Of a DNA stretch of 64,000 nucleotides, positions 3,504-44,729 are shown in pieces; positions within the stretch are counted from its first letter, which is position 1, and each line of letters opens with the position of its first letter. Both the position numbers and the translations under genes were made by a program. This stretch comes from Trypanosoma brucei (lineage: Eukaryota), in the NCBI GenBank assembly GCA_000002445.1, contig CP000068.1:800001-864000 (forward strand), in the 5' to 3' direction. Below the pieces are notes generated by a model that saw only the letters and a list, made by a program, of their open reading frames with translations, ran no database searches and had not been told where the DNA came from.

Positions 3504-3554
3504 AATTGCGAAAGTAGTGAGACTCATCAAGCAGAAAAGGAGGCATTGCATCCG

Positions 3555-5642
3555 ATGTCTCGACGTGTATTGTGGGAATCGGTTCGGCAGGAGGCACGTA
3601 GCAGGGTTGAAGGCGTCAATGCATCACCCATCAGCACGAATGGAATAATAGAGGCACGAGATAAAAGTGATGGTTTGATTACATACGAGGAAGGTGGAGG
3701 CGTCAGCGGCGTTGCAAACGATAATGAAGGGGGATCTCACGGTAAAATCGGGAATATGGCCACAGTGTCACAAGAGAATCGGGATACACAAAATCATGCA
3801 ACTGGTTCACACGATAGCATAATCGCCAGTTGTGATATTAGTTGCATTCCAAAAGATAAGCACGAGTTGCACGGGCCTCCTTCGCACCTTTCACGTTGTG
3901 GATCATCTCCTGAAGCTGAAGGAAATTGTTCCGCTACCGCAGACCCAACGCAGTCGCATTTAACGGATCTGGCTATTTCTGTGCTGCTGGAAACGGGAGG
4001 GGATACACATCAAGACAAGGGTTACAATACGGGGCTTGATGTAAACAACAGCCGCTTCAATAGTTCGGCTACAAACAACATACATCGAGAGCTGGCGCAG
4101 GAAAAACAAAAAAACATTGCTGCTGAGCAACGATTGCTGACGCTGGAGAAGAAAATCAGGGCCCTGCGCGAGGAGAATCAGCATTTACTACTTTCTTCCG
4201 CCACAAATGCAACTGACAGGAAGATGATGAAGGGCGCGACTTCGGCTTACGCTGAGGGTGAAGTTGTTGGCCATGGTGTGCAACGTGACTTTGCGGATGA
4301 AGTTACAGACACAGCTGGGGAAGAGCTACTAGCACTGAAGCGGCGTTGTGATGAGTTGGAGGTTCGGCTCGGTGAATTAACGGCACAGGTGCGACAGAAG
4401 GACCAAGAATTAGAGCAGAAGGAAAATCGAATAAGGCAATTAGAGCACATAATTGCCAACGATCTAATTCGCCGATCAGCGGATGTGAACAAAGAAGAGA
4501 ATACTCAAGGCAGAAGTGAGGGGGTCGGCCGCAGCTCCCCAAAAGTTGAATTTAGTGTGAAAAAAGACGTACCCGGGAAGAAGAACAGCTCAACCCAAGG
4601 AACAAACGGTGTAGTGAGTAGAGAATCACCAACGACAGCCGCTGCCCGCGAGACGGCTTCGTCCACAGCTGCAGCTCCACCCGGATTGAACTTAGGGGAC
4701 TTGCGTTCAGTCGAGGCTCTGCAACGACTGTTACTGTCCAGCATTGAGGCTACTAACTTATTGGTCGATAGTTCAAGAGTGTCTAAAGGAAAGGAAATGG
4801 ATACCTTATCGGTGCCCTCCTCCCTCACGCACGGGTCGTCGCATCTTGCCGAAGGGTACACGCGTGTGAGTACTTCAGATGTCAAGCAGCGTCCCCTCCG
4901 CGTAGTGAGACAAGGGGAAATAGTAAGCCATTCAGCGACCTCTAGAGCTTCATCAGCTGCAGGTGTGCGTGCGTCTCCCAGTCGCCATGGAGCGAGACAC
5001 CGCGCCTCCTCCGTCCCCGGAAGGTGCAGTGAGTCGCGTGCCTCTTCAGTGAGGGCAATTCGACAGAGAGGACCATCGAGTGATTCGCCCATGCGAGAAG
5101 CAGCGATGTTTGCGCGTATATCAAGCGCCCCCGGGTGTAGCAAAGCAACTTCGTCTCTCTCTTCACGTCGCCCTCCGACCCAAAAGCTTCTCAGTGGTCG
5201 CATTCCGTTACGCTCCACAGAACTCTTTAGCAATGTGACCCATATGAACCGCTTCTCACAGTACCAGAATGCTCGACGAACCTCGCGCCCGGACGCATGT
5301 GCATCCGCCGCCTCGCCAAAAAGTAGCTGCTCGACGAACAAATCAAACGGCCGAGCTCCGAACGTGAAAAAATATGTTACACCTAGGGCCCGTGCTCGAC
5401 CACGAATTGGCGTCGAGGCCACAGCCAGGAGTTTAAAATGCTCACCTCCACAGAAGCCTAGTACAACGGTCATCACCCGCGTTGAAAAGCAACGTGAAAG
5501 AACTCCACCAACACCTGTTCGCCGGGCAGAATATGTGAAAGAGGTGTTATCACAAGACCCATTTGTGTCTGAAATGTTTAAAACAACTTACCGACCCAAC
5601 CGACTGGTGCGGTGCAGCAAAGAGGAAGGGGAAAGTGTATGA
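3555..5642 (+). CDS. Hypothetical protein with a central coiled-coil ('LTLEKKIRALREENQHLL', 'LKRRCDELEVRLGELTAQVRQKDQELEQKENRIRQLEH') and a Ser/Arg/Pro-rich basic C-terminal tail.
   Basis: A 698-codon ORF with its first ATG at 3555; the track start at 3546 is TTG. A polypyrimidine tract lies at 3478-3503 upstream. The ORF is on the same strand as its neighbours. No family recognised. Confidence 0.55.
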   Translation: MSRRVLWESVRQEARSRVEGVNASPISTNGIIEARDKSDGLITYEEGGGVSGVANDNEGGSHGKIGNMATVSQENRDTQNHATGSHDSIIASCDISCIPKDKHELHGPPSHLSRCGSSPEAEGNCSATADPTQSHLTDLAISVLLETGGDTHQDKGYNTGLDVNNSRFNSSATNNIHRELAQEKQKNIAAEQRLLTLEKKIRALREENQHLLLSSATNATDRKMMKGATSAYAEGEVVGHGVQRDFADEVTDTAGEELLALKRRCDELEVRLGELTAQVRQKDQELEQKENRIRQLEHIIANDLIRRSADVNKEENTQGRSEGVGRSSPKVEFSVKKDVPGKKNSSTQGTNGVVSRESPTTAAARETASSTAAAPPGLNLGDLRSVEALQRLLLSSIEATNLLVDSSRVSKGKEMDTLSVPSSLTHGSSHLAEGYTRVSTSDVKQRPLRVVRQGEIVSHSATSRASSAAGVRASPSRHGARHRASSVPGRCSESRASSVRAIRQRGPSSDSPMREAAMFARISSAPGCSKATSSLSSRRPPTQKLLSGRIPLRSTELFSNVTHMNRFSQYQNARRTSRPDACASAASPKSSCSTNKSNGRAPNVKKYVTPRARARPRIGVEATARSLKCSPPQKPSTTVITRVEKQRERTPPTPVRRAEYVKEVLSQDPFVSEMFKTTYRPNRLVRCSKEEGESV

Positions 5643-8306: not shown

Positions 8307-11300
8307 ATGAATCGCAAGGGGTATAAGGCTCTTCCAAGGGAATATGATGAGGGTTTTAGTGAGGAAAGAGTTAGGCATGCATTGAACAAAGATGCTCCCA
8401 GCAAAATATATGAGGAGTTCATTGTGCAGAGGTTGCAGGAAATTATGGAAACTGCTCAGTCTGATTCGAAGAAACCTGCCACATTCGGGCGTGCAGCCGC
8501 CGCAGACGTTTTTTTGCGTCAAGATGCACCCATTACTGTAACATTTGCTATGCTGGCGACTTCGTGCGCGATGCACCCCACTACCGACGTTGTTACGTTT
8601 TCAGTGTTGTTCGCCGCGCTGTACACGTCGTGCATGGCATTGCAGGTACTTCTTTTATGGTTACGCATAACCGAAAAGAGACAGTCAGCTATTTCTGTCA
8701 TGCAAAAAGTCCTCACACGGTGGAAAAAGCGTCTCGTAGAGGGACCACCGAGGGATAAATTGGATCGCCGCACTGTGTTTCGTTTGTTTTCTTCTTTCCT
8801 TCCAGCTAGCGCCTTTCGTATTGTGGCTGTTGTGGATACAACGACGGGGCGGCTAAAGCGTACTCTGAAATGTCTTGTGATGAAAGGGGCTCTTCGACTT
8901 CAAAGGACGACGTTGAAGGTGAGTCGTCACACGGAGCCAATTGAGTTATTTAAACTCGTCGACATCGTGCGAATGATACTGAAGGGTGAAGCCGTGATGT
9001 TGAGATCACTTCCAGATATGGCTCCTCCACCCCGGCACCCAAACGTAACCGTCGACGCCAACATCAATGGTACAGGGGTAGAAGGAAATGACGAGGACAT
9101 ATCAACAGATGAGAGTGATGACGAATACGACACGCGATGTGAGGCGAATAGTGTTCATGCGCTGTCGGTACCGCAACAGATGGCTTTTCTTGTGTATCGC
9201 TTCGTTCTTCTTGCTTGGTTGCTGGGCATCGTGGCGTGTACTTTTTCTGGTTACATATATCACGTACTCACCGATATCCCGCTGAGTGACGGCGTCTTTC
9301 TGAATCCTGCTGTAGCATTACTTGGGTTACTACCTGTAAACGCAAAGTTGCTGAATAGCATCCTCGTTATGTATGCGAATGTGAACCTTGAGTGTCTATT
9401 TCGTCATCTTGTCTCTAAAACCACACACGCTGTTGATGATCGGATTCCGAGACTTCCCTTCCGGGCAACTATGCAAGCTTTCCGCCGTGCCACATCAGCT
9501 ACCTGCAGTCGACCCCCATTATGTTTTTCTTCCTCATTGGTCGAAACACTTGGAACCACAACCGTCGTGGCTCTGCTCGACACAACAGGCGTAGTGACCG
9601 ATATGGTTCCTCTTCCCACACGGTTGCTTATGCTTAAGAGTTACACAGCACCGGAAACCCCCAGTAGCACAAGCAGCACTACAACCAGCGATAGCGATAA
9701 CGACGAATTTAATGGCGCTGCTGCCTTTACAGGTCTTGATCATAGCAATGACCCGGACCCGTTCCTGAGAGCAGCGAACTTTGACCCAGAGTATCGTTTG
9801 GCGTTGAAGCGTCAAGTCCGGCAAAAGAAAACACAGAAGAGGAGGTTCCTGGAGTTGCAACTTGCACCTGGTACCGATGATGATCTTGCTGTGCAGTTTG
9901 CCGACTGCAAGGAGCGGCAAAAGTGGGAAAAGAATGTGGACTCCCTTTCACTGTGTTTGTTGATTCATGCTATGGCACCTGAGCCGACCAAATTCGAAAC
10001 GTGGCAGGAGCCGCTTAGGTTTTGTGACCAAACACCCCGGTGGGGTCCCAGCATACACTGGGTGCCGCGTGCAAGCGAATTCGATGATTCATTAGCTAAG
10101 TCATTTCGAATTGTGGCACGTATATTTCATATCAATACGGTGTCTTGGCCGGGACGCTCCAGAGAGTGCCCGGAACAGACTTGCACGCTCCTGGTGGTCG
10201 CCAGTGATGGTCTATTACACGCATTTACTGTCGGTACCGTTTGTATGGTAACTCACAGTTGCCCATTTCACTTTAACGGCTATGAAATTGAAGGGTTCGA
10301 TGAAGAGTTACGAGAGGAAGTAGTTAATACTGGCACAGTGGTGTGGAAAGACGGAAGAGGATTGGAAACCGTGGCGGCCTCGCACGCTATGCTACCGGAC
10401 AAATTTCGTTCCTGTGCAGAGGCTTTGCCGCGGGAGGACGGCTCGTACGCTGAGTTTTTGTTTTATAATGGGGTGCAGATTACCGCTGAGAACTGTCTAG
10501 CCGAACTTAAGTTGTCTCCATCGGGGGAACCGTCGACAAATGGATGTGAGGGGACAAATGAAGGGGTACCACGCGAATGTTTCCTAGGAGTGCCGACGAA
10601 CACGAATGGTTCAACGCCTGCAACCTCTGAAGCAGACGTTATAGGTGCCATCAACAGCAACGAGAGAGATGCAATCAACGAAGGGAATAGCTTCTGTTGC
10701 AGCAAGGGATTTACAGACATTCATGGAAACTCCCGCCTTTCGTTTGTTCCCACTTCTGTTGAACTACTAGGCGACCTTCTTCATGTTCTTATTAACGGCT
10801 CGCACGCCTTCTTGGGGCTTGTTGGACTTCAGGATTCCATTCGCCCCAATGTACAGAATGCGATGTCAGTTCTTGATGAAGCAGGTATCCGTTGCATGTA
10901 CTTCTGCTCTGACGGTGAAAGGCGGACCAAAAGCCTCGGAAATCGCTTGGGCCTTGAAACGGATTGGAACTGCTGCATTTCTTTGGACGAAGGAGCCAAG
11001 GACCTTGACGCTCACAGCATTCGAGCACAGCTACCAGTGGGGATAAAGTCCATTAGGCGACATATCGTACACGTAGACTCCATTCCATTGCAGGTTAATA
11101 TGTTTTCCCACGCACACAGCGCATCGACGCGTGCGATGCTTTCCATCTTGCAAGACAACCACGAGGTTGTGTCCGCCATTGGGTCGACGTTCAACCATAG
11201 CAACGTTCGGAGCTACATTCAGGCGGACTTGTCTGTTGGAGTTCTTCCGCAGAGGCGCGGAGCTGTAGAAGACAAGGAGGGACTATGCTTAGAAAATCAA

Positions 11301-12506
11301 AAGCGTATTAGTGAATCATCTGATATTCGTAGTATGAAGTCTGAGACTGGTGATCAGTTACTCTATCGCGATGTAGTGGACCTGATTGGCTGTGCCTGCA
11401 CGCTCTCGGATACCTCGACCACCTCAATGTTACCGATAGTGACAACTTTGATTCGACAGGCAAGGTTTCGGCTAAGTGGAATAGGCAATTGCATTTCCTT
11501 TGTGATGCATGCAAACTTTTTTGTTACATTTTTGAATGTAATACCCTTGATAATTGGTGGGCCGCTCCTGATACAGCCAGCAGCTGCGGTGTTTGAGCTC
11601 AATGTTATCATACCCATCCTAGCTCTCTCGTGCACCTACACTGCGTATGCGGACAAGGACCCAATGAAGAGCATTCAATCGAGGCATAATCATTTCGTCC
11701 GACTTAAAATATTGCGTCACAGTGCTGTCGTGTGGTGCCTGCGGTACATTCCCTCACTTGCCGCGTTGTTGGCTCTGGGCATAACGTGTGGTTTACAAAA
11801 GTGTGATAAGGGAAGTTTGCATGAGCTCGCGCTCTCTTCATCCGATAAATGTATGGCTGCAACGCGTGGTTACATTGGACTCACGTTGAATTATTGGCTG
11901 ATGTTTCACAGCTGGACGCACATGAGTCGTTACGACAGACTTTCACCCGCATTTCTATTTAAACCTCGTTACGGTGGACAATACATGTACTTATTCACAT
12001 CTGCTCGGTGGGTCGCTGCCAATGCGCTAACCGTATTCTTCAGTGTTGCGTTTGTTGTCGCGGAAACCTTCTGGGACGGCATACTTGAAGACGCCTTCTT
12101 TCCATCACGCACTCACTTCTACATCTCCGCCTTCTTCCCCGTGCTGTTGGTGTTATTGGATATACCAATAAAGTCGTGGAGGTTGAAGCGCGCAACTTTA
12201 ATGCAAAAGTTCCGTCAGTTGTCTTTCGGTACGCGGCTGGGGATGCATTCACCGCGAGGAGACTATGAACCGGAAGTTGGTTCGGCCACCGGTTGTAGCG
12301 GAGGAGCCAATGAGTGCGGAGGCGGGGTACAGGGAAGCACATCAGACGCCAACGTACGTAATGAACTACCGCTGCGGCGTAGGTTGCAGGATGCCTTTTA
12401 TCGCTTCACAACCATGCGCAGGGGAAAACTGGAACTTAACTGCGTATGTTGTGATCATATCGGGGGTAACTACGCCACGTATCACATTAACGCAAACGAC
12501 ATGTAA
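8307..12506 (+). CDS. Large (1399 aa) polytopic membrane protein with a divergent P-type ATPase-like P-domain, possibly TMEM94-like.
   Basis: ATG at 8307. The segment 'LGLVGLQDSIRPNVQNAMSVLDEAGIRCMYFCSDGERRTKSLGNRLGLE' parallels the SERCA P-domain '[42 protein letters not shown]'. 'CTLLVVASDGLLHAFTVGT' sits where the phosphorylation motif 'ICSDKTGTLT' would be: the SD is kept but KTGT is lost. The C-terminal TM helix 'NVIPLIIGGPLLIQPAAAVFELNVIIPILAL' resembles the P-type M-helices. Multiple TM segments are present in both the N- and C-terminal regions. Confidence 0.6.
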   Translation: MNRKGYKALPREYDEGFSEERVRHALNKDAPSKIYEEFIVQRLQEIMETAQSDSKKPATFGRAAAADVFLRQDAPITVTFAMLATSCAMHPTTDVVTFSVLFAALYTSCMALQVLLLWLRITEKRQSAISVMQKVLTRWKKRLVEGPPRDKLDRRTVFRLFSSFLPASAFRIVAVVDTTTGRLKRTLKCLVMKGALRLQRTTLKVSRHTEPIELFKLVDIVRMILKGEAVMLRSLPDMAPPPRHPNVTVDANINGTGVEGNDEDISTDESDDEYDTRCEANSVHALSVPQQMAFLVYRFVLLAWLLGIVACTFSGYIYHVLTDIPLSDGVFLNPAVALLGLLPVNAKLLNSILVMYANVNLECLFRHLVSKTTHAVDDRIPRLPFRATMQAFRRATSATCSRPPLCFSSSLVETLGTTTVVALLDTTGVVTDMVPLPTRLLMLKSYTAPETPSSTSSTTTSDSDNDEFNGAAAFTGLDHSNDPDPFLRAANFDPEYRLALKRQVRQKKTQKRRFLELQLAPGTDDDLAVQFADCKERQKWEKNVDSLSLCLLIHAMAPEPTKFETWQEPLRFCDQTPRWGPSIHWVPRASEFDDSLAKSFRIVARIFHINTVSWPGRSRECPEQTCTLLVVASDGLLHAFTVGTVCMVTHSCPFHFNGYEIEGFDEELREEVVNTGTVVWKDGRGLETVAASHAMLPDKFRSCAEALPREDGSYAEFLFYNGVQITAENCLAELKLSPSGEPSTNGCEGTNEGVPRECFLGVPTNTNGSTPATSEADVIGAINSNERDAINEGNSFCCSKGFTDIHGNSRLSFVPTSVELLGDLLHVLINGSHAFLGLVGLQDSIRPNVQNAMSVLDEAGIRCMYFCSDGERRTKSLGNRLGLETDWNCCISLDEGAKDLDAHSIRAQLPVGIKSIRRHIVHVDSIPLQVNMFSHAHSASTRAMLSILQDNHEVVSAIGSTFNHSNVRSYIQADLSVGVLPQRRGAVEDKEGLCLENQKRISESSDIRSMKSETGDQLLYRDVVDLIGCACTLSDTSTTSMLPIVTTLIRQARFRLSGIGNCISFVMHANFFVTFLNVIPLIIGGPLLIQPAAAVFELNVIIPILALSCTYTAYADKDPMKSIQSRHNHFVRLKILRHSAVVWCLRYIPSLAALLALGITCGLQKCDKGSLHELALSSSDKCMAATRGYIGLTLNYWLMFHSWTHMSRYDRLSPAFLFKPRYGGQYMYLFTSARWVAANALTVFFSVAFVVAETFWDGILEDAFFPSRTHFYISAFFPVLLVLLDIPIKSWRLKRATLMQKFRQLSFGTRLGMHSPRGDYEPEVGSATGCSGGANECGGGVQGSTSDANVRNELPLRRRLQDAFYRFTTMRRGKLELNCVCCDHIGGNYATYHINANDM

Positions 12507-13342: not shown

Positions 13343-16087
13343 ATGGTGCCATCCATCCCTCAACTACTGCTTGAGCTTCCGGTGGTTTGTGTTAGTGAAA
13401 ATCATTTACTGAATGGTCGCCTTACTTTGTCCGTTAAAGATGCAACCGCTACCGCGCAGTCATATTACGGTGCTGTGGAGAAGTACTTGCAAGGTAGGGA
13501 ACCCCATCTGGACTTGGAAAAAGATGTTGTCCCAGCCATTGACTTTGCCCTGCGTCTTTTTAACGCGGAGAACTTTAGTGGGGAGTTAGTGCCAGCGGAG
13601 CGGGAGCAGCTGTCTACCGTGCTGGATCGCTACGCCACCGTTGACACGCTGCACGAGCGCTATGTACAGCGTTTGTTAATGAGCGATGGTGAAATGCCTC
13701 ATCCCTGTGTGCGACTTAGTAGGATGTTGCTGGCTGTTCTCGCTACTGCGTGCAGTTCGGTGAAGCATGCCGGACAGTCACAGCCGCAACCGCTGCTGCC
13801 TTACACCTCCGTTTGGCGTCTGCGTTGTCACATGCGTCACCAGCTAATCATGCAGCACCGTGCCCACTCAATATTTCTTCACCTCTCGTCTTGCGTGGAT
13901 GCTGCCCTCGCACTGCCAGACGAATCACTTACGGCTGAACATCTGCTGGAAGTCGGCCACGTGCAGAACTATTACCATCAACGTGAACTAGCAGCGGAAG
14001 TGTTTTGGCGTGCGGCGAGGAAAAGCGGTTTATCAGTCAGCGAAGACACCATGGTTGGCGTGCGAACCCGGTGGCAACAACAGCGGATGGTGCAGATGGT
14101 CGTGAACGCCAGCAGCCAGGTTCCCTTTGCTGCTCCAATATCCGAAAGTGACGCAACTGGAGGTGATGTGCCCCTAGCTGTGATGAGCGAAAAAGATGGA
14201 CATGATTTACTGGATCGACCCCGCGAAGCGGCTGAGGCTCCGGTGGCCGAATTGCAAGCGCTGCAACCACTGGATAAGGCTATCATGCTCGCTTTGTGTA
14301 TAGATATACGGAACACTAATCCATATCATGGGCTGACGCAGCACCGCATGCAGACGTACGTAGAGCGGCTTCTGTCTGATCCAGTTCCCGCACCTTTCAT
14401 CATACAGTGCCAAACACTGTTGCTGCGAGCTCGCCTAGAGCGAGGTCGGAACCGAGTTCAGGAGCGTGCCTTCATGCAGATGACTGAGCTAGTGGACCAA
14501 CATTCGGCCGGTCGTGATCCCAACCGCGCGACGTTTCACAGAACAGATAGCGACTACTTTTACAGTGTTGCCTATCCGTCAATTTGGCAATTGCGAAGTG
14601 AGTATGCTGACTTCTGCTTCGATGAGAGCCTTGTGAAAACGGCACTCGACGCTTATGAGCAGGTGCAAGACTGGGAGAACATCATAAAATGTTGTAAAGT
14701 TCTTGACAAGAGGAGGAGGGCAGAATCCCTAGCGCGAGACCTGTTGGAGTCTGACCCCTGCAACCCACTTTTGTGGGTGGCATTGGGGGAAGCCACGAGG
14801 GAAGCCGAGCACCTTACGAAGGCATGGGAATTGTCTGACCATCGATCTGCGGCACCCATGCGAGCTCTGGCGCGGTTGGCACTCGAGCGTGAAGAATATG
14901 AGCGGGTTGTGGAATGTTTCGATGAGGCAGTGCGTCTCAATCCAGTGTTTGGTGGAGACTGGTTTGCCTTAGGCTATGCTGCAATGCAATTAAAGCGATG
15001 GGAACGCAGTGGTGAAGCCTTCACTCGCGTCTGTCAGATTCAACCCAACGATGCGTACGCGTGGAATAACCTAGCATCAGTACTGCTTCGCACAGGGAAG
15101 CTTCGTCCCGCATTTAATGCGATGAACCAGGCACTGCGCAACAACCGGAGAGACTGGCGGATGTGGCAAAACTACTTCGCGATTGGGTGTGAATTGAAGG
15201 AGGTAACTGAGACAACAAATGCTCTCAACGTGTTGCTGGACATTGCCCAACGTAACGTTCATCTAGAGCGCGGTTCGCTGAACCGCTTTGTGGAGAATGC
15301 CATTGCGTATATGGAAGGACGGATACCCGCAAGTTGCAAAGATCAACAGATGACAGAAGAAGATCAAGAACAGGCGGTGGAGCAGGAAGCAGAAAATAGA
15401 GACGAAGGTGGGAGGATGCACCGAGCGGCTGTCACTAACACCTCGGCTACCCGCATGGGTGTGGAAGATGACAGCATCGCCACCAATGGAAATCATGTTA
15501 ATCCTTCTGATGAAGATGCGATGTGTGATATTGTGCCATTGTGTGCGGATATTGATTTACCAGACATGTGTTCTCCATCTACTAATGCGGCAGCTGCGGA
15601 GGAAGCTGAGCGCGTGCGTGAAGGTGTAATTAGCCGATATAAGTTCCGTTTGCGTGAGACATTTAAACGGATCATCGACCTATTTGTGACGGATCCGGAC
15701 ATATACGCCTGTGCGGCGAAGCTTCTACGATACATGGATGGACCGCTAACTGCTTACGAAATGCGGCAGAAGGAACTTCGGTGTTGTCAGCAAAAGGACC
15801 AATGGGAGCGCGACACTGCACGATTTGCACGGACATGTGAATGTCTTAATGATATGTCTAGGGATTTGTTGGATGCGGTTGATTATTGTGGGGATAGTGT
15901 GGATAATTTGAAGAAGAACAATATTGTAACGGTTTTAAGTGACACGGTGAATAACGTTATAGCCGCCCTTGAAGCGTCAGAGGAGTACATGGAAGAAACG
16001 GCAGAATACAAGCAACTGCGCGGCGAGCTTCTCCCACGTATGCGAAAAGCTCTTAAGGAGACCAAAACTCGCATTATGGCCGACTGA
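13343..16087 (+). CDS. TPR-repeat protein, possibly TTC27-like.
   Basis: 914-aa ORF with ATG at 13343. The C-terminal half has tandem TPR-like repeats (e.g. 'AYAWNNLASVLLRTGKLRPAFNAMNQALRNNRRDWRMWQNY', 'GDWFALGYAAMQLKRWERSGEAFTRVCQIQPND'). The TTC27 assignment is from memory of its architecture only. Confidence 0.6.
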   Translation: MVPSIPQLLLELPVVCVSENHLLNGRLTLSVKDATATAQSYYGAVEKYLQGREPHLDLEKDVVPAIDFALRLFNAENFSGELVPAEREQLSTVLDRYATVDTLHERYVQRLLMSDGEMPHPCVRLSRMLLAVLATACSSVKHAGQSQPQPLLPYTSVWRLRCHMRHQLIMQHRAHSIFLHLSSCVDAALALPDESLTAEHLLEVGHVQNYYHQRELAAEVFWRAARKSGLSVSEDTMVGVRTRWQQQRMVQMVVNASSQVPFAAPISESDATGGDVPLAVMSEKDGHDLLDRPREAAEAPVAELQALQPLDKAIMLALCIDIRNTNPYHGLTQHRMQTYVERLLSDPVPAPFIIQCQTLLLRARLERGRNRVQERAFMQMTELVDQHSAGRDPNRATFHRTDSDYFYSVAYPSIWQLRSEYADFCFDESLVKTALDAYEQVQDWENIIKCCKVLDKRRRAESLARDLLESDPCNPLLWVALGEATREAEHLTKAWELSDHRSAAPMRALARLALEREEYERVVECFDEAVRLNPVFGGDWFALGYAAMQLKRWERSGEAFTRVCQIQPNDAYAWNNLASVLLRTGKLRPAFNAMNQALRNNRRDWRMWQNYFAIGCELKEVTETTNALNVLLDIAQRNVHLERGSLNRFVENAIAYMEGRIPASCKDQQMTEEDQEQAVEQEAENRDEGGRMHRAAVTNTSATRMGVEDDSIATNGNHVNPSDEDAMCDIVPLCADIDLPDMCSPSTNAAAAEEAERVREGVISRYKFRLRETFKRIIDLFVTDPDIYACAAKLLRYMDGPLTAYEMRQKELRCCQQKDQWERDTARFARTCECLNDMSRDLLDAVDYCGDSVDNLKKNNIVTVLSDTVNNVIAALEASEEYMEETAEYKQLRGELLPRMRKALKETKTRIMAD

Positions 16088-37627: not shown

Positions 37628-38986
37628 ATGCACGTACTTGGCAGAGATCCTACGTCCAACTGCCTCCCCAATGCTAGTGGAGATGAGGCCAAACAAATGA
37701 ATGGGCGTGCACGTAACCCTTATGCTGCAAGAAATGGTTTCAATGTCAACAGCGGGGAAGAAACGCAATGTAGCCCGATTGGTTCACCTATAAACCCACA
37801 TTGTCGCGAGGGTTCTGGAGAATACGCGGTGCAACCCGTTAACGTACAGGCGCGTTACCGTCTGCAAAGCCCACCAATATCTTTTGCATCGGGAAATCCA
37901 TCATTTCCCACCTCACCGCGTGATAGTGCTCTACATTCCACGCCACACGTGCGTAGTTGCAGTAACTCTTTTCCTTGCGATGGATTTTGTAGGCCAAACC
38001 CTTCTGGCCAGACGTTTAGCCCGGCGATGGGGAGGTCCCCTGATTTTAGTAACGATCCCAACATGTGCATGCCACCGTACCCCGGCGGTTACACGCCTTC
38101 AGGTTTTGTTATGCCTCCTGCACTTGCAACGGCTGCACCACCACCTCGTACTGATGTGATGGGGCGCGCACCGGTACCCGACGGTCAAGCGTCCATGCGA
38201 CCCAAGCGGCCGGTGAGTTCACCCATCGCTTGCGGTCATGGCTCCCGTTACGTCTCACCGGTTGTGTTGTCCGTTTCACCAAATTATCAAGTTGGATCCC
38301 ACCCGCTGTGTAACCCAACAGGTCCCCAATCCGTTGGGTGTAATAATGTGCATGTTGCAGTTGGCAGCGTGGAGCCCGCTCAAAGCGCACACTCCAAAAT
38401 GACTACGGGTGATGGGAGTTCAACCGTGTCTGGTGGTAGTGGTAGCTCTATTCGTGAGGACTTACCCTTGTGTTCCAATGATGGCGTATGCACGTTAATT
38501 AACGACCGCAAACATCAGCGACGGTTTGCACATACCTGTCGTCTGTTCCCTTGTTATCATGGACACATAGCGCGGCATTCAAAACTGTTCCGGCATGCAC
38601 CTGGACAAGTTGCACAGTCGGAGGAACTGCTCAACAACGGCGATGGGTCAAAGAAACTTCCTGCAGAGGCGCTGACAAGCGTAAGTTTCAGTTCTATCAG
38701 TCGCGAGGCCGCCAACGCCTATCGTATCATTGTTAGTCACAGAAATAAAAGTTATGAAATATTCGGTGACTGGATGAATGTCCGTGTGCATACCTTTAAG
38801 CGTTACTTAAATCAGGTGTATAACGTGCCGCCACCATCGCAAGTGCTAGTGCGGGAGGAAGGCAATGTCCCACTCGATGACGATCTTGAATCTGTAGGAC
38901 ATTATGGCATTAAACAGGATGGTGTGGTGATTCTAAGGTGGAAGGATGAAGATGAGCCTCTTGCTGTTTCTCTTGAACAGCTGTAA
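37628..38986 (+). CDS. Hypothetical protein with a Cys/His putative zinc-binding motif and a C-terminal ubiquitin-like domain.
   Basis: The first ATG is at 37628; the track start is GTG. 'CSNDGVCTLINDRKHQRRFAHTC' (C-x5-C-x7-H-x5-H) is reminiscent of PBZ-type fingers but does not fit the consensus. The C-terminus 'PPSQVLVREEGNVPLDDDLESVGHYGIKQDGVVILRWKDE' has a ubiquitin-like pattern (inference). The N-terminal half is Pro/Ser-rich low complexity. Confidence 0.5.
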   Translation: MHVLGRDPTSNCLPNASGDEAKQMNGRARNPYAARNGFNVNSGEETQCSPIGSPINPHCREGSGEYAVQPVNVQARYRLQSPPISFASGNPSFPTSPRDSALHSTPHVRSCSNSFPCDGFCRPNPSGQTFSPAMGRSPDFSNDPNMCMPPYPGGYTPSGFVMPPALATAAPPPRTDVMGRAPVPDGQASMRPKRPVSSPIACGHGSRYVSPVVLSVSPNYQVGSHPLCNPTGPQSVGCNNVHVAVGSVEPAQSAHSKMTTGDGSSTVSGGSGSSIREDLPLCSNDGVCTLINDRKHQRRFAHTCRLFPCYHGHIARHSKLFRHAPGQVAQSEELLNNGDGSKKLPAEALTSVSFSSISREAANAYRIIVSHRNKSYEIFGDWMNVRVHTFKRYLNQVYNVPPPSQVLVREEGNVPLDDDLESVGHYGIKQDGVVILRWKDEDEPLAVSLEQL

Positions 38987-41900
38987 GAAGGTTTCATTAC
39001 TTTGTTTTTTTTCTTTTACCGCATGGCATCGTGGTAAAAGGAAAAAAATATATATATATATATGTGTATGTGTTTATATATATATATACGTGTTTATATA
39101 TGTTTATAAAGAACGAAAGGAAAAGGAAAAAAAAGAGCAGTGGGAAGGTGATGCCAAAAATAAACGCTGTTTCGTGCTAATGAACTGGTGGTGGAAAATG
39201 TGGAGAGGAAGAGGAAAAAAAAAAGAAAAAGAAAGGAGCGAATTCGTAATTATATTCAATTATACACGCGCGCACCTGCCACGGAACATTGGCAAAAAAT
39301 ACATAAATCTATTGATATATATATATATATATATCAACAAATATATCTCTCCCTCGAATTTTAACAAACCCTTCACTTCCCAATATAATAAAATGCAACC
39401 GGCAAGCCAAAGGTGCGGTGACACCTCAACATTTGGAAAAAAAAATAAGTCAACACAAACATACGCAGACAACGAGAGAAAGAGAGAGAGAGAAGAAGAA
39501 ACAGAAAGAAAAGAAATAAGAAAAAAATTTATAATAATAACGATGATGATGATAATACTGAACGGAAGCAGAAAAATTATATATATATATATATATATGA
39601 GTTATCATACGTATGTATATTTAGGTGAAGGTATTCCGAAGAAGAAGGAGGGGGGAAAAGTAGAGAGTGTGAAAGTGTAAAAGAGTTGAAGAGGAAAAAA
39701 AATAAATAAAAGAATATATATATATATATATTATATATATAAGAATTGAGATGAGATGAAATGGAAAAAGGTGAAGCAACTGAGTTAAATGAAAAAAAAA
39801 AATGCTCCTTCAATAGCCTAATGGCTGTAGTGCAGTTGGCAACACAAATGTGGCGTTGTTGTTGTGCTTTGCGGCTTCAACTATTGTGTTATTTGTTTAG
39901 TAATACTGTGGTTGTTTTCTCTACTAATCTTGTCATCATATATTTGTATGTCTGCATACGCCTGTGTTTTTATAAATTGGAGAGGAGGATAATGAGAGTT
40001 CCACTAAGGAAGAGAGAAAGAAAGAAAGAAAGAAAAGGACAAATGTGAGGGAAAATTTAAAAAAGATATATATATGAGTTAAATGACTTGGTTGTGGTGA
40101 GATGAGAAATAAATAAATAAATAAAAGACGTTGAAGCATTATAGACAACACGAAAGAATGAGTAAATAGACAACTTTACGACATTTATACCTAAACTCTT
40201 TTTTTTCCTTTGTTTGTTCGTTTGTTTTGAAAAGAAGAGAAGAGAATAAAGGAACTTAGGGATATTGAAACAGTAACGAGTGTGTGAGGGAAAAGTAGTC
40301 AAAAGGAGAGAAGAAGGTGAAAAAACAAAAAAAACAAAAGAAAAGAAGAAAAACGAAAAAGTTGTGACGGTAAAGAGGGGTTCATTTTTTTTCCTTTTCT
40401 TTAATTTTATTTTTCATTTGGTTGTTTCTTTTGTTTAAAAAAAAAAAAGAAAAAAGATGTGAAGTTATTGCGGAAGGTGACTAAATAAATAATTAAGTAA
40501 CGTGGACTTCACGCACGATGATAAGGAGACACAAACGCACAGGCACACAAAAATAAATAAATAAATAACGACAGGGATAAAAAGAAGAGGTTAATTTAAG
40601 CTTAAAAACAAAAAAAAAATATATATATATATATAACAAACGCTCCTTTGAAATTATTAATTGTTTTTTTTATCAATCTAAAGGAAAAGATATGCAAATA
40701 TAAATGAATGCATACTGAAATTTTAAAGAATAAAGAAAAAAGTTTAAACCAGAGCGATTAATAAAGATAAAAGAAAATTAAGATGATAATGAAAAAGAAA
40801 AAAGAAAAAAAACGTTCCCAATTAATTTAAATGGGTGATGTTCCTCATGTTTTCAATTGTTTATTGTTTCCTTTTTCCAATGTCAGAGAAGACAACAACA
40901 AAAGATTAAATGTCCCCCTTTTTTTTCCTTTTGTTTTTTTTTGCGTACTTCCGTCTTTTTTTTTCCTTGTATCGTTCATAATAAATCCTTCTAGTGAATG
41001 CAATGGAAAGAAAAAGTGAAGAAGAGATAAGGTTCTCCTTCTTCCATTTTTTCTTTTTTTTATTGTATATCTCTCGTGTTATTTATGTATTTATATATAT
41101 TTTTTCCCTCTAAAGTTCGAGGGAACAAAAACGATATGTTTACTGCGGAATTCCAAGATTAATGAAGGGCAAGTGCCGAAAGGGAAAGAGAGAAGGGGAG
41201 GGGAGGGGAGAGGGGGAAAAAAAAAGAAGTAAACAAAGTGGGAAATATTTGTTTTTCCTTTTGATTTTTTTAATTTTTGTTTTTAAAGGAAGAACTGACG
41301 CATCTCTGGATGCGTGATGTGTGTGAGATAAAAGGGAAAAAGGGAGATTAATGAGGCGTTGAGGGGAGTGGGTAAATTAATATATACAATTTGTTTTCAT
41401 GCGATTTTGTTCCGAATTGTTTTCTTATGTTTTTTGTGTCCACTTCATTTTTGTTTGGTTTCATTCTTTTTTTTTCCTCTATTTTGCTGTTTGTTCTTCA
41501 CAATTTATCTCTTCTTTTTTTGTTTTTTTTGTGCTTATATATATATATATATATATTTATTTATATTTGTTTATGGTGTTACTTTCTCTCCATTTACTAT
41601 TAATTGCCTTTCAATTTTTTTTCTTACACTTACTCTTTACCTTTAATTGTTTCTTCTTTACTTTTCAATTTAAATATTTTGTTTTTTTTTCTCCTTACAA
41701 AAGAAAAAAAATTCCTTAACTAACTTCATATAATTGTAGACTCTCTGTGATTGAAGGTAAATATGAGTGGCAGTTTGAGTGAGGTTTTGATGTGACTTCC
41801 TTTTCGTTTTTGTGTTTTTTTTATTTTTGTCGTTGTTTCCTTTCTTCTCTTTTTTTTTTTTAGAAAAAAAATCCCCTACATTATTCGCCAGCATAACTTT

Positions 41901-44009: not shown

Positions 44010-44729
44010 ATGGCCTTTTGGGAAAAGATATGGTGCCGTCTTTTCGGCCGTGTAAATATCCCTGGTGTAGTTTACAGTGATGAAATTGATGCAACTGCCA
44101 CATATGACCGTCAGCAGCGGGAATCCATGTGGCGAGGTAACTTACGTAATGTCCGTCTCGACACGGTGCCACCGCTTTTGTTACGAACGAGTGGCGCCGA
44201 AAATGCCTTATTGGGACCCGAAGAGGAACCCTACACATTTTGGGAGCGGGTTGGTGTTGTTCCTGTACATCCCTCACGCGTGCGGCCCCGGCAATATTAT
44301 CATCCGATAACTGATTTTGGGTTGTACGATTATGATGAGGTGTCGCCGGAGGAGCGGGATTTAACGGCACGTTGGTTGGCGAAGGTGTTGGAGTTCAACG
44401 CAGCGGTGCCACTCGGCATTCTCTGTGCAGCTGGTTGTTTAGTGCTTCCTTTACACACGGTATATCGTATGCCCCTTTTGGTTGCATCGGCGGCAACGGG
44501 GGTAATGTTTGAGATCACACATTCGTACATGAATGCGGGGAAGGAACGACAGGATCTTGACGACTTCATATTGGCAAAGGAAATTTGGTATATCAAAAAC
44601 GTGGAGGCGTATCAGTTAGACATTCCGCTCATTCCCAAAGGACGTGAGGCGGAGTACCAGGCATTCCTGGATGGCTCTAATGGAACTTCGCAAATGTTGC
44701 CTGATGAGCTAGCGGAGGCCCTCCACTAA
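44010..44729 (+). CDS. Hypothetical protein (239 aa from the first ATG).
   Basis: The first in-frame ATG is at 44010; the track start at 43914 is GTG and its first 32 codons are Lys/Glu low complexity. A hydrophobic segment 'AVPLGILCAAGCLVLPL' is present. An antisense ORF at 44008..44370 is judged spurious. Confidence 0.45.
   Translation: MAFWEKIWCRLFGRVNIPGVVYSDEIDATATYDRQQRESMWRGNLRNVRLDTVPPLLLRTSGAENALLGPEEEPYTFWERVGVVPVHPSRVRPRQYYHPITDFGLYDYDEVSPEERDLTARWLAKVLEFNAAVPLGILCAAGCLVLPLHTVYRMPLLVASAATGVMFEITHSYMNAGKERQDLDDFILAKEIWYIKNVEAYQLDIPLIPKGREAEYQAFLDGSNGTSQMLPDELAEALH

What the first reader, a model, noticed from the sequence alone, without database searches (positions are those of the whole stretch)
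8307..12506. Giant P-type-ATPase-like membrane protein with a degenerate phosphorylation motif
The 1399-aa protein retains a recognisable P-domain/hinge segment ('LGLVGLQDSIRPNVQNAMSVLDEAGIRCMYFCSDGERRTKSLGNRLGL', matching SERCA '[14 protein letters not shown]...[25 protein letters not shown]') and P-type-like TM helices. At the position of the invariant DKTGT it reads 'ASDGLLHAF': the Asp is kept and KTGT is lost. The TGDN and GDGxND equivalents are also altered ('CSDGE'). I could find no TGES actuator motif. This looks like a pseudo-ATPase or a highly derived P-type family member, plausibly TMEM94-like. The function would be unknown in trypanosomatids.
Basis: partly seen in the sequence, partly recalled or inferred. 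Interest (0 to 1): 0.6.

Follow-up and report, generated by a model that had tools for sequence, protein, structure and literature searches.

The report
Trypanosome TMEM94/ERMA-like pseudo-P-type ATPase
It is an ordinary member of a known but disputed family, not a new kind of protein.

Summary
The 1399-aa ORF (8307-12506, +) is real. It is identical to T. b. brucei TREU927 XP_844923.1 / UniProt Q582B6, annotated 'hypothetical protein, conserved'. The best PDB matches are human TMEM94/ERMA (E = 5.9e-20 with one sequence, 2.6e-31 with a trypanosomatid profile). An AlphaFold model (pTM 0.79) matches TMEM94 structures first (Foldseek E = 2.4e-32) and P2-type pumps next.

The DKTGT equivalent is D425-T-T-G-V-V-T, the only DxTG in the protein. 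D425 is invariant in trypanosomatids and is Asp in 77 of 80 family members. 'ASDGLLHAF' (632-640) is a beta-hairpin turn of the N-like domain just before the KGAPE equivalent.

Lost or changed: the Lys of DKTGT, TGES, the KGAPE Lys, K684, and GDGxND (now GSTFNHSN). No Pfam model matches.

The family spans eukaryotes. The Leishmania mexicana orthologue (LmxM.17.1230) already carries InterPro 'Transmembrane protein 94' and has been knocked out: viable, slightly slower growth. Whether TMEM94 pumps Mg2+ is disputed for the human protein and cannot be settled here.

Verdict: ordinary new member of a known kind, with modest comparative value.

The parts
8307..12506 (+). Complete ORF of 1399 aa plus stop. 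Identical to T. b. brucei TREU927 XP_844923.1 / UniProt Q582B6.
8526..8741 (+). TM1 and the long TM2 helix (aa 74-145).
   Evidence: Model 1 helices at aa 74-89 and 93-145; hydropathy.
8742..9167 (+). A-like (actuator-like) domain, aa 146-287. It keeps the strand pattern 'V-x-x-D/G...LVMKGA' (PGD equivalent K193-G194-A195). There is no TGES.
   Evidence: Family consensus 'V.RDG.....P..LLV.GD'; alignment to canonical pumps; human numbering.
8979..8999 (+). L225-K-G-E228-A-V-M, the best but uncertain candidate for the TGES position. The residue at 228 is D or E in 6 of 8 trypanosomatids, and many other family members have G-[DE] here.
   Evidence: It aligns with 'LTGE' in 2 of 3 canonical hits, and the third hit aligns differently.
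9105..9119 (+). T267-D-E-S-D, the conserved core of an acidic insert found only in Euglenozoa, just before TM3. It resembles TGES by eye, but it sits in a disordered loop that the rest of the family lacks.
   Evidence: T267, D268, S270 and D271 are invariant; the insert is absent outside Euglenozoa; pLDDT is below 50.
9168..9416 (+). TM3 and TM4 (aa 288-370). TM4 is broken at L342-P343 within L339-G-L-L-P343-V-N-A. This is the equivalent of human PILP and canonical PEGL.
   Evidence: DSSP break in model 1; P343 is Pro in 40 of 45 family members; alignment to 'VPEGLP'.
9564..9605 (+). Phosphorylation-loop equivalent: V-V-A-L-L-D425-T-T-G428-V-V-T431-D432-M. This is the true counterpart of DKTGTLT.
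9606..10796 (+). N-like domain (aa 434-830), with two disordered low-complexity inserts at aa 450-488 and 739-815.
   Evidence: Secondary structure and pLDDT of models 1 and 2.
10200..10256 (+). It is followed by the KGAPE equivalent F640-T-V-G643-T, in which the ATP-binding Lys has become V642.
   Evidence: It aligns with human TMEM94 700-736 and with 'VKGAPD' of Ca-ATPases. Model strands are aa 623-631 and 637-643. G643 is Gly in 92 of 95 family members.
10812..10955 (+). It contains D843-S-I-R846-P (DPPR equivalent), G860-I-R-C-M-Y-F, and C867-S-D869-G-E (TGDN equivalent).
10950..11105 (+). The most conserved block of the family: GLETDWNCCISL...RAQLPVGIKSIRRHIVHVDSIPLQVNMF (aa 882-933). N888, H919, D924 and P927 are invariant from Discoba to animals. 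No canonical counterpart was identified.
11103..11204 (+). F933-S-H-A-H-S-A-S-T941-R942, where the canonical K684 position is T941. Then G959-S960-T-F-N963-H-S-N966, the GDGxND equivalent, in which D703 has become Ser and D707 has become His.
   Evidence: the human equivalent GSSANL is described in PMC13322241
11427..11648 (+). The long TM5 helix and TM6 (aa 1041-1114). They contain R1053, H1068-A-N1070 (N1070 corresponds to SERCA N768 and to human Q1100, called 'Q1110' in the paper), and F1096-E1097-L-N-V-I-I-P1103. E1097 occurs only in trypanosomatids.
   Evidence: This is the strongest stretch against canonical pumps, i-Evalue 6e-14.
11691..12230 (+). TM7 to TM10 (aa 1129-1308), with a very long TM10 helix at aa 1268-1308.
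   Evidence: models 1 and 2
12219..12275 (+). Family hallmark L-S-F-G-T-R-L-G-M-H1314-S-P-R-G-D-Y-E-P-E. It is the equivalent of the human 'GMN motif' but reads GMH here.
12372..12482 (+). C-terminal extension specific to the kinetoplastid-like sequences. Two predicted helices are followed by L-E-L-N-C-V-C-C-D-H-I-G-G-N-Y-A-T-Y.
   Evidence: Invariant in trypanosomatids; the [NQ]CVCC motif is present in all kinetoplastid-like relatives and absent elsewhere; moderate pLDDT.

Best explanation
Identity (shown, about 0.95). The gene encodes the single T. brucei orthologue of TMEM94 (KIAA0195, also called ERMA). This is a pan-eukaryotic family that branched off the P-type ATPase superfamily and is nearest to the P2-type pumps. 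The protein has 10 TM helices, with A-, P- and N-like cytoplasmic domains.

Kept:
- the phosphorylation-site Asp (D425, in D-T-T-G-V-V-T);
- the helix-breaking Pro of TM4 (P343);
- the TM5 Asn (N1070);
- the P-domain strands.

Lost:
- the Lys of DKTGT;
- TGES;
- the ATP-binding Lys of KGAPE (now V642);
- K684 (now T941);
- the Mg2+-binding Asp residues of GDGxND (now G-S-T-F-N-H).

It therefore cannot run the textbook Post-Albers cycle with the textbook residues.

Mechanism (inferred, about 0.45). I think it most likely works as the ERMA model proposes for the human protein. That is a non-canonical cation (Mg2+-type) transporter of an internal membrane that depends on D425. The ion would sit at the unwound TM4 (backbone carbonyls of G340 and L342) and at the side chain of N1070 on TM5. 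The headpiece would energise or gate transport by chemistry that is still unknown. The protein is dispensable for growth in culture, judging from the Leishmania knockout.
For: Identity:
- PDB matches to TMEM94 have E = 5.9e-20 and 2.6e-31 with a profile, in colinear stretches.
- The AlphaFold models have pTM 0.79 and 0.77.
- Foldseek gives TMEM94 at E = 2.4e-32 with TM 0.60/0.68, then SERCA, Na/K, H/K and SPCA pumps at 1e-17 to 1e-14.
- The family profile reaches bona fide Ca-ATPases at 1e-19 to 1e-11 against 5.8 billion sequences, with motif-by-motif colinear alignment.
- There is one orthologue per trypanosomatid species.
- 704 representative clusters match at E <= 1e-3. The sampled members come from Discoba, CRuMs, Amoebozoa, fungi, choanoflagellates, animals and alveolates.
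- The L. mexicana orthologue carries InterPro IPR039720 'Transmembrane protein 94', and its orthology was verified with the paper's own primers.

Mechanism:
- D425 is Asp in 77 of 80 family members and G428 is Gly in 71 of 80. That is deep purifying selection on the loop.
- Human D427N, P334V and Q1110A/L lose Mg2+ uptake, and an ion-like density sits at the PILP carbonyls and Q1110 (PMC13322241). The Tb equivalents are D425, G340-L-L-P343 and N1070.
- TM4 is broken at L342-P343 in the model.
Against: - The human protein showed no ATPase activity, no bound nucleotide at the canonical site, no Mg2+ binding and no conformational change under six conditions (PMC12134183). Both structural groups saw one conformation only.
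- The D703, D707, K684 and K515 equivalents are absent family-wide, so Mg2+-dependent phosphoryl transfer by the known route is implausible.
- The proposed non-canonical ATP-site Lys (human 'K1101') is N1061 in T. brucei and is Lys in only 6 of 118 family members.
- The 'GMN' motif reads GMH here and is N in only a minority of the family.
- The polar TM5 position is variable across the family: N, Q, S, C, H or Y.
- Nothing about localisation, substrate or activity was or could be tested for the T. brucei protein.
Confidence: 0.6

Rival explanations
1. It is a catalytically inert P-type scaffold, a true pseudo-ATPase. The protein keeps the fold and the Asp for structural or ligand-binding reasons. 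It would act as a lipid-binding, lipid-handling or regulatory membrane protein and would pump nothing.
For: - The Mg2+-binding residues (D703, D707), K684, the KGAPE Lys and TGES are lost across the whole family.
- For human TMEM94 there is no ATPase activity, no nucleotide or Mg2+ density, and identical structures under six conditions. A phosphatidic-acid-like lipid is buried next to TM4, and the cytosolic entrance is positively charged (PMC12134183).
- The Leishmania null mutant is viable with only a mild growth delay.
- The best-conserved block of the family (aa 882-933) has no counterpart in pumps.
Against: - The Asp and Gly of the phosphorylation loop have been kept from Discoba to animals, in 77 of 80 and 71 of 80 sequences. 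That would be unusual for a dead active site.
- The human D427N mutant loses function, and proteoliposomes are reported to take up Mg2+ in an ATP-dependent way (PMC13322241).
- Trypanosomatids carry an extra invariant Glu (E1097) and polar residues (N345, H1068, N1070) in the TM4-6 region. That fits an ion site better than a lipid groove.
Confidence: 0.33
2. It is a fully functional canonical P-type pump running the Post-Albers cycle with autophosphorylation and dephosphorylation, and its motifs are merely divergent in sequence.
For: - The overall fold is that of a P-type pump. D425 sits at the canonical position after the first P-domain strand, and D-T-T-G-V-V-T shares 4 of 7 positions with DKTGTLT.
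- D869 is kept at the TGD position, and D843 and R846 are kept at DPPR.
- A semi-conserved acidic residue (E228) aligns with the Glu of TGES in 2 of 3 alignments.
Against: - No Pfam P-type model matches, and NCBIfam scores are 13-19 bits against cut-offs of 62-1240.
- The PROSITE-type signature D-K-T-G-T-[LIVM]-[TIS] is not met.
- The D703, D707, K684 and K515 equivalents are Ser, His, Thr and Val.
- The motif-based census of trypanosomatid P-type ATPases did not pick the protein up.
Confidence: 0.05
3. One reading: the phosphorylation site is 'ASDGLLHAF', where only the Asp survives.
For: Only the visual resemblance of a hydrophobic strand followed by Asp.
Against: - Three independent alignments put DKTGT at aa 425-429.
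- Residues 632-640 align with human TMEM94 at about 692-701 and with the strand before KGAPE in Ca-ATPases.
- In the model they form a hairpin turn inside the N-like domain.
- D634 is not invariant, being Asp in 6 of 8 trypanosomatids.
Confidence: 0.02

Closest known systems
Human TMEM94 / ERMA (KIAA0195). Structures 9JJK, 9JJN, 9JJO, 9JK3, 9JK4, 9JK5, 9YYD and 9YWQ. InterPro IPR039720.
   Same: - 10 TM helices with A-, P- and N-like domains.
- A non-canonical phosphorylation loop that keeps the Asp (human DKQGILS, Tb DTTGVVT).
- G-S-x-x-N-x-x-N in place of GDGxND.
- No TGES.
- An unwound TM4 with Pro.
- A polar TM5 residue at the proposed ion site (human Q, Tb N).
- The GLETxWNC...RAxLPxGI..IR.H...VD.xPL block.
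- A very long TM10 ending in F-x-T-[KR]-L-G-M-x-S-P.
- A disordered loop after the L-x-x-G-[DE] strand of the A domain.
   Different: - Overall identity is only about 14-20%.
- The residue after the Asp is Thr, not Lys.
- Position 3 is Thr, as in canonical pumps, not Gln.
- The first Pro of PILP is Gly (G340).
- Human D186 (the paper's 'D196') is A195 in T. brucei.
- Human K1091 (the paper's 'K1101') is N1061.
- 'GMN' reads GMH.
- Trypanosomatid-only features: E1097 in TM6, GIRCMYFC instead of CIRFVYFS, an acidic T-D-E-S-D insert, and an 83-aa C-terminal extension with an NCVCCDH motif.
P2-type P-type ATPases (SERCA, SPCA/PMR1, PMCA, Na+/K+- and H+/K+-ATPases, bacterial Ca2+-ATPases)
   Same: - The fold matches: Foldseek E = 1e-17 to 1e-14.
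- The profile alignment is colinear over the A-domain strands, TM4, the phosphorylation loop, the KGAPE strand, the hinge with TGD, the GDG strand and TM5-6.
- The Asp, the DPPR Asp and Arg, the TGD Asp and the TM5 Asn are retained.
   Different: - TGES is missing, as are the Lys of DKTGT, K515, K684, D703 and D707.
- The Ca2+ ligands E309, E771, N796, T799 and D800 are V, V, L, I and I.
- No Pfam or NCBIfam model is passed.
Leishmania mexicana LmxM.17.1230 (TransLeish screen, PMC11696137)
   Same: It is the direct orthologue. The paper's primers map inside the L. infantum orthologue's ORF, and the downstream TPR gene is syntenic. It is classed under TCDB 3.A.3 with an InterPro TMEM94 signature.
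   Different: It comes from another genus. It is the only trypanosomatid member with any experimental data: the null mutant is viable and its promastigote doubling time is about 8-8.4 h against 6.5-7.3 h for the parent.

Membership tests
TMEM94 / ERMA family (IPR039720) | Significant, colinear, near full-length sequence similarity to TMEM94. | tested here: met
   phmmer E = 5.9e-20 in 3-4 colinear stretches; profile E = 2.6e-31 in 6 stretches.
TMEM94 / ERMA family (IPR039720) | Structure closest to the solved TMEM94 structures: 10 TM helices plus three cytoplasmic domains. | tested here: met
   Model pTM 0.79. The top four Foldseek hits are TMEM94, at E = 2.4e-32 to 6e-31 and TM 0.59-0.68, ahead of all pumps. 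TM9-10 come from model 2.
TMEM94 / ERMA family (IPR039720) | A non-canonical phosphorylation loop, D-x-x-G-[TIV]-[LIV]-[STA], with the Asp conserved. | tested here: met
   D425-T-T-G-V-V-T. Asp is present in 77 of 80 family members and Gly in 71 of 80.
TMEM94 / ERMA family (IPR039720) | G-S-x-x-N-x-x-N in place of GDGxND. | tested here: met
   G959-S-T-F-N-H-S-N966. Family counts: G 148/152, S 126/152, N966 143/152. The human sequence GSSANL is given in PMC13322241.
TMEM94 / ERMA family (IPR039720) | The family-specific P-domain block GLETxWNC...RAxLPxGI..IR.H...VD.xPL.V.LF. | tested here: met
   aa 882-933. N888, H919, D924, P927, L928, V930 and F933 are invariant across 24-32 diverse sequences.
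TMEM94 / ERMA family (IPR039720) | The motif F-x-T-[KR]-L-G-[ML]-x-S-P at the end of a long TM10. | tested here: met
   F1307-G-T-R-L-G-M-H-S-P1316. The TM10 helix spans aa 1268-1308. In kinetoplastids the motif is internal rather than at the C-terminus.
TMEM94 / ERMA family (IPR039720) | ER localisation and ATP-dependent Mg2+ uptake (the function claimed for ERMA). | not testable with these tools
   This needs tagging and ion-flux assays in T. brucei. It is also disputed for the human protein (PMC12134183 against PMC13322241).
Canonical P-type ATPase (Pfam PF00122 and PF00702; PROSITE-type signature D-K-T-G-T-[LIVM]-[TIS]) | The curated family models are passed. | tested here: not met
   No Pfam hit at E <= 10 apart from noise. 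The best NCBIfam hit scores 18.6 bits against a cut-off of 798, and the generic TIGR01494 scores 15.7 against 62.3.
Canonical P-type ATPase (Pfam PF00122 and PF00702; PROSITE-type signature D-K-T-G-T-[LIVM]-[TIS]) | The phosphorylation signature DKTGT[LIVM][TIS]. | tested here: not met
   The sequence is D-T-T-G-V-V-T, with K changed to T and T5 changed to V. It is the only DxTG in the protein.
Canonical P-type ATPase (Pfam PF00122 and PF00702; PROSITE-type signature D-K-T-G-T-[LIVM]-[TIS]) | The TGES dephosphorylation loop in the A domain. | tested here: inconclusive
   There is no TGE or TGES string. Profile alignments to pumps put TGES either on K226-G-E228-A or on C215/K216.
Canonical P-type ATPase (Pfam PF00122 and PF00702; PROSITE-type signature D-K-T-G-T-[LIVM]-[TIS]) | GDGxND (the Mg2+-binding Asp residues) and the K684-type Lys. 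| tested here: not met
   D703 is S960, D707 is H964 and K684 is T941.
Canonical P-type ATPase (Pfam PF00122 and PF00702; PROSITE-type signature D-K-T-G-T-[LIVM]-[TIS]) | The KGAPE nucleotide-binding Lys. | tested here: not met
   The sequence is F640-T-V642-G643-T. The Lys position is hydrophobic in all trypanosomatids.
Canonical P-type ATPase (Pfam PF00122 and PF00702; PROSITE-type signature D-K-T-G-T-[LIVM]-[TIS]) | The overall fold, with A, P and N domains, a broken TM4 and a long TM5. | tested here: met
   Foldseek finds 247 PDB matches at E <= 0.001, and the ranks listed after TMEM94 are all P-type pumps. Secondary structure is given.
Canonical P-type ATPase (Pfam PF00122 and PF00702; PROSITE-type signature D-K-T-G-T-[LIVM]-[TIS]) | Formation of an aspartyl-phosphate intermediate. 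| not testable with these tools
   This needs a biochemical assay.

The most novel reading that the evidence does not exclude
Kinetoplastid TMEM94 proteins could be real, active cation pumps that have rebuilt both the catalytic site and the ion site with different residues. The phosphorylation loop is closer to canonical at position 3 (D-T-T-G). Acidic candidates for the lost functions are E228 (or the T-D-E-S-D loop) and D432. The TM4-6 pocket has an invariant Glu (E1097) together with N345, H1068 and N1070.

If so, the genetically tractable trypanosome protein would be the cleanest system for showing that the TMEM94 family forms a phosphoenzyme, which would settle the ERMA dispute. It would also add a fifteenth pump, unrecognised until now, to the T. 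brucei P-type inventory.
Probability: 0.12. Interest if true: 0.7.

Novelty: new member of a known kind. Interest (0 to 1): 0.33.

Why it matters
The gene is an ordinary orthologue of a known family. Automated annotation has already caught the link: InterPro labels the Leishmania orthologue 'Transmembrane protein 94', and UniRef gives Q582B6 a 'P-type ATPase C-terminal domain' name.

Its value is comparative. Whether TMEM94/ERMA is a real ATP-driven Mg2+ pump is disputed between two structural studies, and an orthologue this distant shows which features selection has actually kept.

- Kept: the phosphorylation Asp and Gly, the TM4 Pro, the G-S-x-x-N-x-x-N loop, the GLETxWNC...VD.xPL block, and the C-terminal LG[ML]xSP.
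- Not kept: the 'GMN' Asn, the proposed ATP-site Lys 'K1101', the A-domain Asp 'D196', and the Lys after the Asp.

The work also shows that the motif-based census of 14 T. brucei P-type ATPases misses one superfamily member. It points to tractable organisms (T. brucei, and a Leishmania null mutant that already exists) for testing D425 dependence and organellar Mg2+ handling.

Tried and rejected
- Pfam scan of the whole protein: nothing but noise. The relationship appears only with PDB sequences, NCBIfam below threshold, and family profiles.
- Full MAFFT of about 100 long homologues in the sandbox timed out. I replaced it with an HMM numbered by Tb residue and local hmmsearch alignments. As a result, N-terminal regions are covered by fewer sequences (20-45) than the P domain (about 150).
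- The second named-database search, with the family profile, returned no eukaryotic relatives beyond the 8 trypanosomatids because of its word prefilter. It did return canonical bacterial Ca-ATPases. Taxonomy of the eukaryotic relatives came from cluster look-ups instead.
- I considered T267-D-E-S-D as a displaced TGES and rejected it as unsupported. It lies in an insert restricted to Euglenozoa, is disordered in the model, and sits about 20 residues before the TM3 helix. It could equally be a CK2-type acidic cluster.
- I considered human G195/D196 as a TGES equivalent and rejected it. It maps to the PGD strand 'LLVEGDII'.
- Literature searches for TMEM94 together with Trypanosoma, and for the UniProt and RefSeq accessions, found nothing. 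The Vishnu 2024 and Palmgren 2024 papers are not held.
- I could not measure residue-level 3D distances (E228 or TDESD to D425, or clustering of N345, H1068, N1070 and E1097), because model coordinates are not exposed to the sandbox.
- tRNA, Rfam and tandem-repeat scans of the window were empty.

Full report

The ORF at 8307-12506 (+) exists, starts with ATG and encodes 1399 aa. The protein is identical to T. brucei brucei TREU927 XP_844923.1 / AAZ11364.1 / UniProt Q582B6. [quoted passage not shown] All ORFs of at least 250 aa but one lie on the + strand, as expected for a trypanosome polycistron.

A motif scan finds no DKTG, TGE or GDG, and a single DxTG, at residue 425. Pfam finds nothing. 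NCBIfam finds only P-type ATPase models, far below their cut-offs, and every hit falls on aa 827-886.

**2. What is it?**

*Sequence.* A search of all PDB chains puts human TMEM94 ('ER magnesium-transporting P-type ATPase', 9JJK and others; 9YYD; 9YWQ) far ahead of everything else. E = 5.9e-20, in colinear stretches covering the phosphorylation loop, the hinge, the rest of the P domain with TM5-6, and the C-terminal motif. A profile of eight trypanosomatid orthologues (T. congolense, T. grayi, T. vivax, T. cruzi marinkellei, T. conorhini, Leishmania infantum and Phytomonas, at 43-63% identity, one per species) raises this to 2.6e-31.

*Structure.* Two AlphaFold2 models together cover aa 20-1399 (pLDDT 75.3 and 74.5, pTM 0.79 and 0.77). 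They show:
- ten TM helices;
- TM4 broken at L342-P343;
- a long TM5;
- a very long TM10 (aa 1268-1308);
- A-, P- and N-like domains;
- three disordered inserts.

Foldseek against the PDB ranks four TMEM94 structures first (E = 2.4e-32 to 6e-31, TM 0.59-0.68). SERCA, Na+/K+, H+/K+, SPCA and ACA8 pumps follow at 1e-17 to 1e-14.

*Family size and spread.* An exhaustive HMMER search of 1.84 billion representatives finds 704 clusters at E <= 1e-3 and 474 at E <= 1e-10. Sampled members come from:
- a diplonemid (Lacrimia);
- Euglena;
- Heterolobosea (Willaertia, Acrasis);
- CRuMs (Rigifila);
- Amoebozoa (Thecamoeba);
- fungi (Lobosporangium, Polychytrium);
- a choanoflagellate (Salpingoeca);
- animals (Saccoglossus 'KIAA0195-like', Antedon 'TMEM94-like', lamprey);
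- an alveolate (Vitrella).

The family is therefore ancient and pan-eukaryotic, and the window gene is its kinetoplastid orthologue.

*Link to real pumps.* A profile of 24 diverse members also reaches bona fide bacterial Ca2+-ATPases, which carry Pfam PF00122, PF00702, PF00689 and PF00690, at E = 1e-19 to 1e-11 in a database of 5.8 billion sequences. Descent from the P-type superfamily is thus visible in sequence as well as in fold.

**3. Where the motifs really are**

I built HMMs whose positions equal T. brucei residue numbers. I aligned them to the 150 best family members and to canonical Ca-ATPases.

| Canonical motif | T. brucei equivalent | Conservation |
|---|---|---|
| DKTGTLT | D425-T-T-G-V-V-T | Asp in 77/80 family members, Gly in 71/80. 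The next residue is K or R in 62/80 but T, A or Q in the eight trypanosomatids. |
| KGAPE | F640-T-V-G643-T | Gly in 92/95. The Lys position is hydrophobic in trypanosomatids. |
| DPPR | D843-S-I-R846 | D843 and R846 invariant in trypanosomatids. |
| TGDN | C867-S-D869-G | Family consensus is S-P-E-N. |
| K684 | T941 | T, V or I in most of the family. |
| GDGVND | G959-S-T-F-N-H | G 148/152, S 126/152; N966 143/152. |
| PEGL | P343-V-N-A | Pro in 40/45. |
| TM5 N768 | N1070 | Polar but variable across the family. |

The Ca2+ ligands E309, E771, N796, T799 and D800 are V, V, L, I and I.

In the model it is the turn and second strand of a beta-hairpin in the N-like domain. Its Asp (D634) is present in only 6 of 8 trypanosomatids.

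*TGES.* No such string exists. Two of three profile alignments to pumps place L-T-G-E on L225-K-G-E228, and the third places it nine residues upstream. The family has a semi-conserved L-x-x-G-[DE] there (human L-E-P-G-D, 211-215, followed by the loop 218-239 that is invisible in the cryo-EM map). The look-alike T267-D-E-S-D lies in an acidic, disordered insert restricted to Euglenozoa. I leave the TGES equivalent unresolved. The ERMA authors also say it has yet to be identified.

**4. How it probably works**

The human protein is contested.

- Li et al. 2025 (PMC12134183) solved six structures under conditions that mimic the Post-Albers states. All were identical, with no nucleotide or Mg2+ density. 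They found no Mg2+ binding and no ATPase activity, a buried phosphatidic-acid-like lipid, and a positively charged entrance.
- Venkatesan et al. 2026 (PMC13322241) report ATP-dependent Mg2+ uptake in cells and proteoliposomes. They see an ion-like density at the carbonyls of the unwound TM4 (P334, L336) and at Q1110. Function is lost in D427N, P334V, Q1110A/L, K1101A and K1266A. They propose a non-canonical ATP site near TM8.

Mapping these residues onto T. brucei:

| Human residue (paper numbering) | T. brucei | Kept? |
|---|---|---|
| D427 | D425 | yes |
| P334-I-L-P337 | G340-L-L-P343 | backbone site plausible |
| Q1110 | N1070 | similar amide |
| K1101 | N1061 | no (Lys in only 6/118 of the family) |
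| D196 | A195 | no |
| 'GMN' | G-M-H1314 | no |

Across the family the C-terminal motif reads LGMHSP in 51 sequences, LGMWSP in 14, LGLHSP in 12, LGMNSP in 11 and LGMYSP in 9. It is the literal C-terminus in 78 of 106.

My reading is this. The deep conservation of the Asp-Gly loop argues that the site still does something. The loss of every known Mg2+ and gamma-phosphate ligand argues that it does not perform textbook autophosphorylation. My estimates are:
- about 0.45 for a non-canonical, D425-dependent cation (Mg2+-type) transporter of an internal membrane;
- about 0.33 for an inert scaffold with a lipid or regulatory role;
- about 0.05 for a canonical pump.

All mechanistic steps are inferred. 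Only fold, homology and residue conservation are shown.

**5. What is already known in trypanosomatids**

- The motif-based census of Meade 2019 lists 14 T. brucei P-type ATPases and does not include this gene.
- The TransLeish screen (PMC11696137) does list LmxM.17.1230 as 'Hypothetical protein, conserved'. It gives InterPro IPR023298, IPR036412 and IPR039720 ('Transmembrane protein 94'), TCDB class 3.A.3 and no prior literature. A null mutant was obtained, with a modestly longer promastigote doubling time (about 8-8.4 h against 6.5-7.3 h, p = 8.7e-5).
- I verified orthology. The paper's two ORF primers hit the L. infantum orthologue's ORF with 2 and 0 mismatches, against 0 expected by chance. 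The downstream TPR gene is syntenic with the window.
- No held paper mentions TMEM94 together with Trypanosoma, or any of the accessions.

**6. Lineage-specific features (unexplained)**

Some are confined to trypanosomatids and some extend to the wider kinetoplastid-like or euglenozoan sequences:
- an invariant Glu in TM6 (E1097; L, I or M elsewhere), in trypanosomatids only;
- H1068 on TM5, mainly in trypanosomatids;
- N345 on TM4, which is shared with part of the wider family;
- GIRCMYFC instead of GIRFVYFS, in trypanosomatids;
- the acidic T-D-E-S-D insert, in Euglenozoa;
- an 83-aa extension after LGMHSP, with two predicted helices and an invariant L-E-L-N-C-V-C-C-D-H-I-G-G-N-Y-A motif, shared by all kinetoplastid-like sequences and absent elsewhere.

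**7. Verdict**

The finding is a genuine but ordinary orthologue of a known, odd family. Novelty: new member of a known kind, already flagged by automated annotation. Interest is modest (0.33). It rests on the comparative leverage the orthologue gives to the TMEM94/ERMA dispute, and on the availability of tractable parasites in which to test it.

Noticed in passing
window 12372-12482 (aa 1356-1392): A C-terminal extension after the family's usual end is found only in the kinetoplastid-like sequences. It ends in an invariant L-E-L-N-C-V-C-C-D-H-I-G-G-N-Y-A-T-Y. The Cys3-His cluster suggests S-acylation or metal binding. Diplonemids have a different 32-aa tail, and most other eukaryotes stop 1-2 residues after LG[ML]xSP.
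   Followed up: partly
window 12219-12275 (aa 1305-1323), and family members P0009-P0158: The 'GMN motif' of human ERMA, which has been likened to CorA and MRS2, is not general to the family. The position is H in 63 sequences, W in 15, N in 13 and Y in 10 (of 106). The motif is the literal C-terminus in 78 of 106 members. The proposed non-canonical ATP-site Lys (human 'K1101') is Lys in only 6 of 118. Both points bear on the ERMA dispute.
   Followed up: partly
window 10950-11105 (aa 882-933): The best-conserved block of the whole family is GLETDWNCCISL...RAQLPVGIKSIRRHIVHVDSIPLQVNMF. N888, H919 and D924 are invariant from Discoba to animals. I could identify no counterpart in canonical pumps and no assigned role.
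   Followed up: partly
window 9105-9119 (aa 267-271): An acidic insert restricted to Euglenozoa has a conserved T-D-[EDS]-S-D core. It resembles TGES by eye and also resembles a CK2-type acidic cluster. It is disordered in the model.
   Followed up: partly
window about 38900-44100: A stretch of about 5 kb is AT-rich (GC 0.26-0.39) and has no ORF of at least 250 aa, no tRNA, no Rfam match and no tandem repeat. It is an unusually long gap in an otherwise dense + strand polycistron.
   Followed up: no
window 13343-16087, and L001 from 8475: The downstream 914-aa ORF is syntenic with a 954-aa gene with faint TPR hits downstream of the L. infantum orthologue. Gene order around the locus is therefore conserved between Trypanosoma and Leishmania.
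   Followed up: partly
window 4505-5476 (-): This is the only ORF of at least 250 aa on the minus strand. It lies entirely inside the + strand ORF 3546-5642 and is probably a spurious antisense ORF.
   Followed up: no
protein P0105 (family member, 1095 aa): It carries a 194-aa extension after LGMHSP that looks like a short-chain dehydrogenase (YGQSKLCNV...NCLHPGAVKTEL). This could be a gene fusion or an assembly or gene-model artefact.
   Followed up: no
PMC11696137, Fig. 3C legend: The legend labels the control 'deltaIFT88 (LmxM.17.1230)' and also lists 'delta LmxM.17.1230 (P-ATPase)'. The first looks like a typing error in the paper. The supplementary tables consistently give LmxM.17.1230 as the TMEM94-like gene.
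   Followed up: partly
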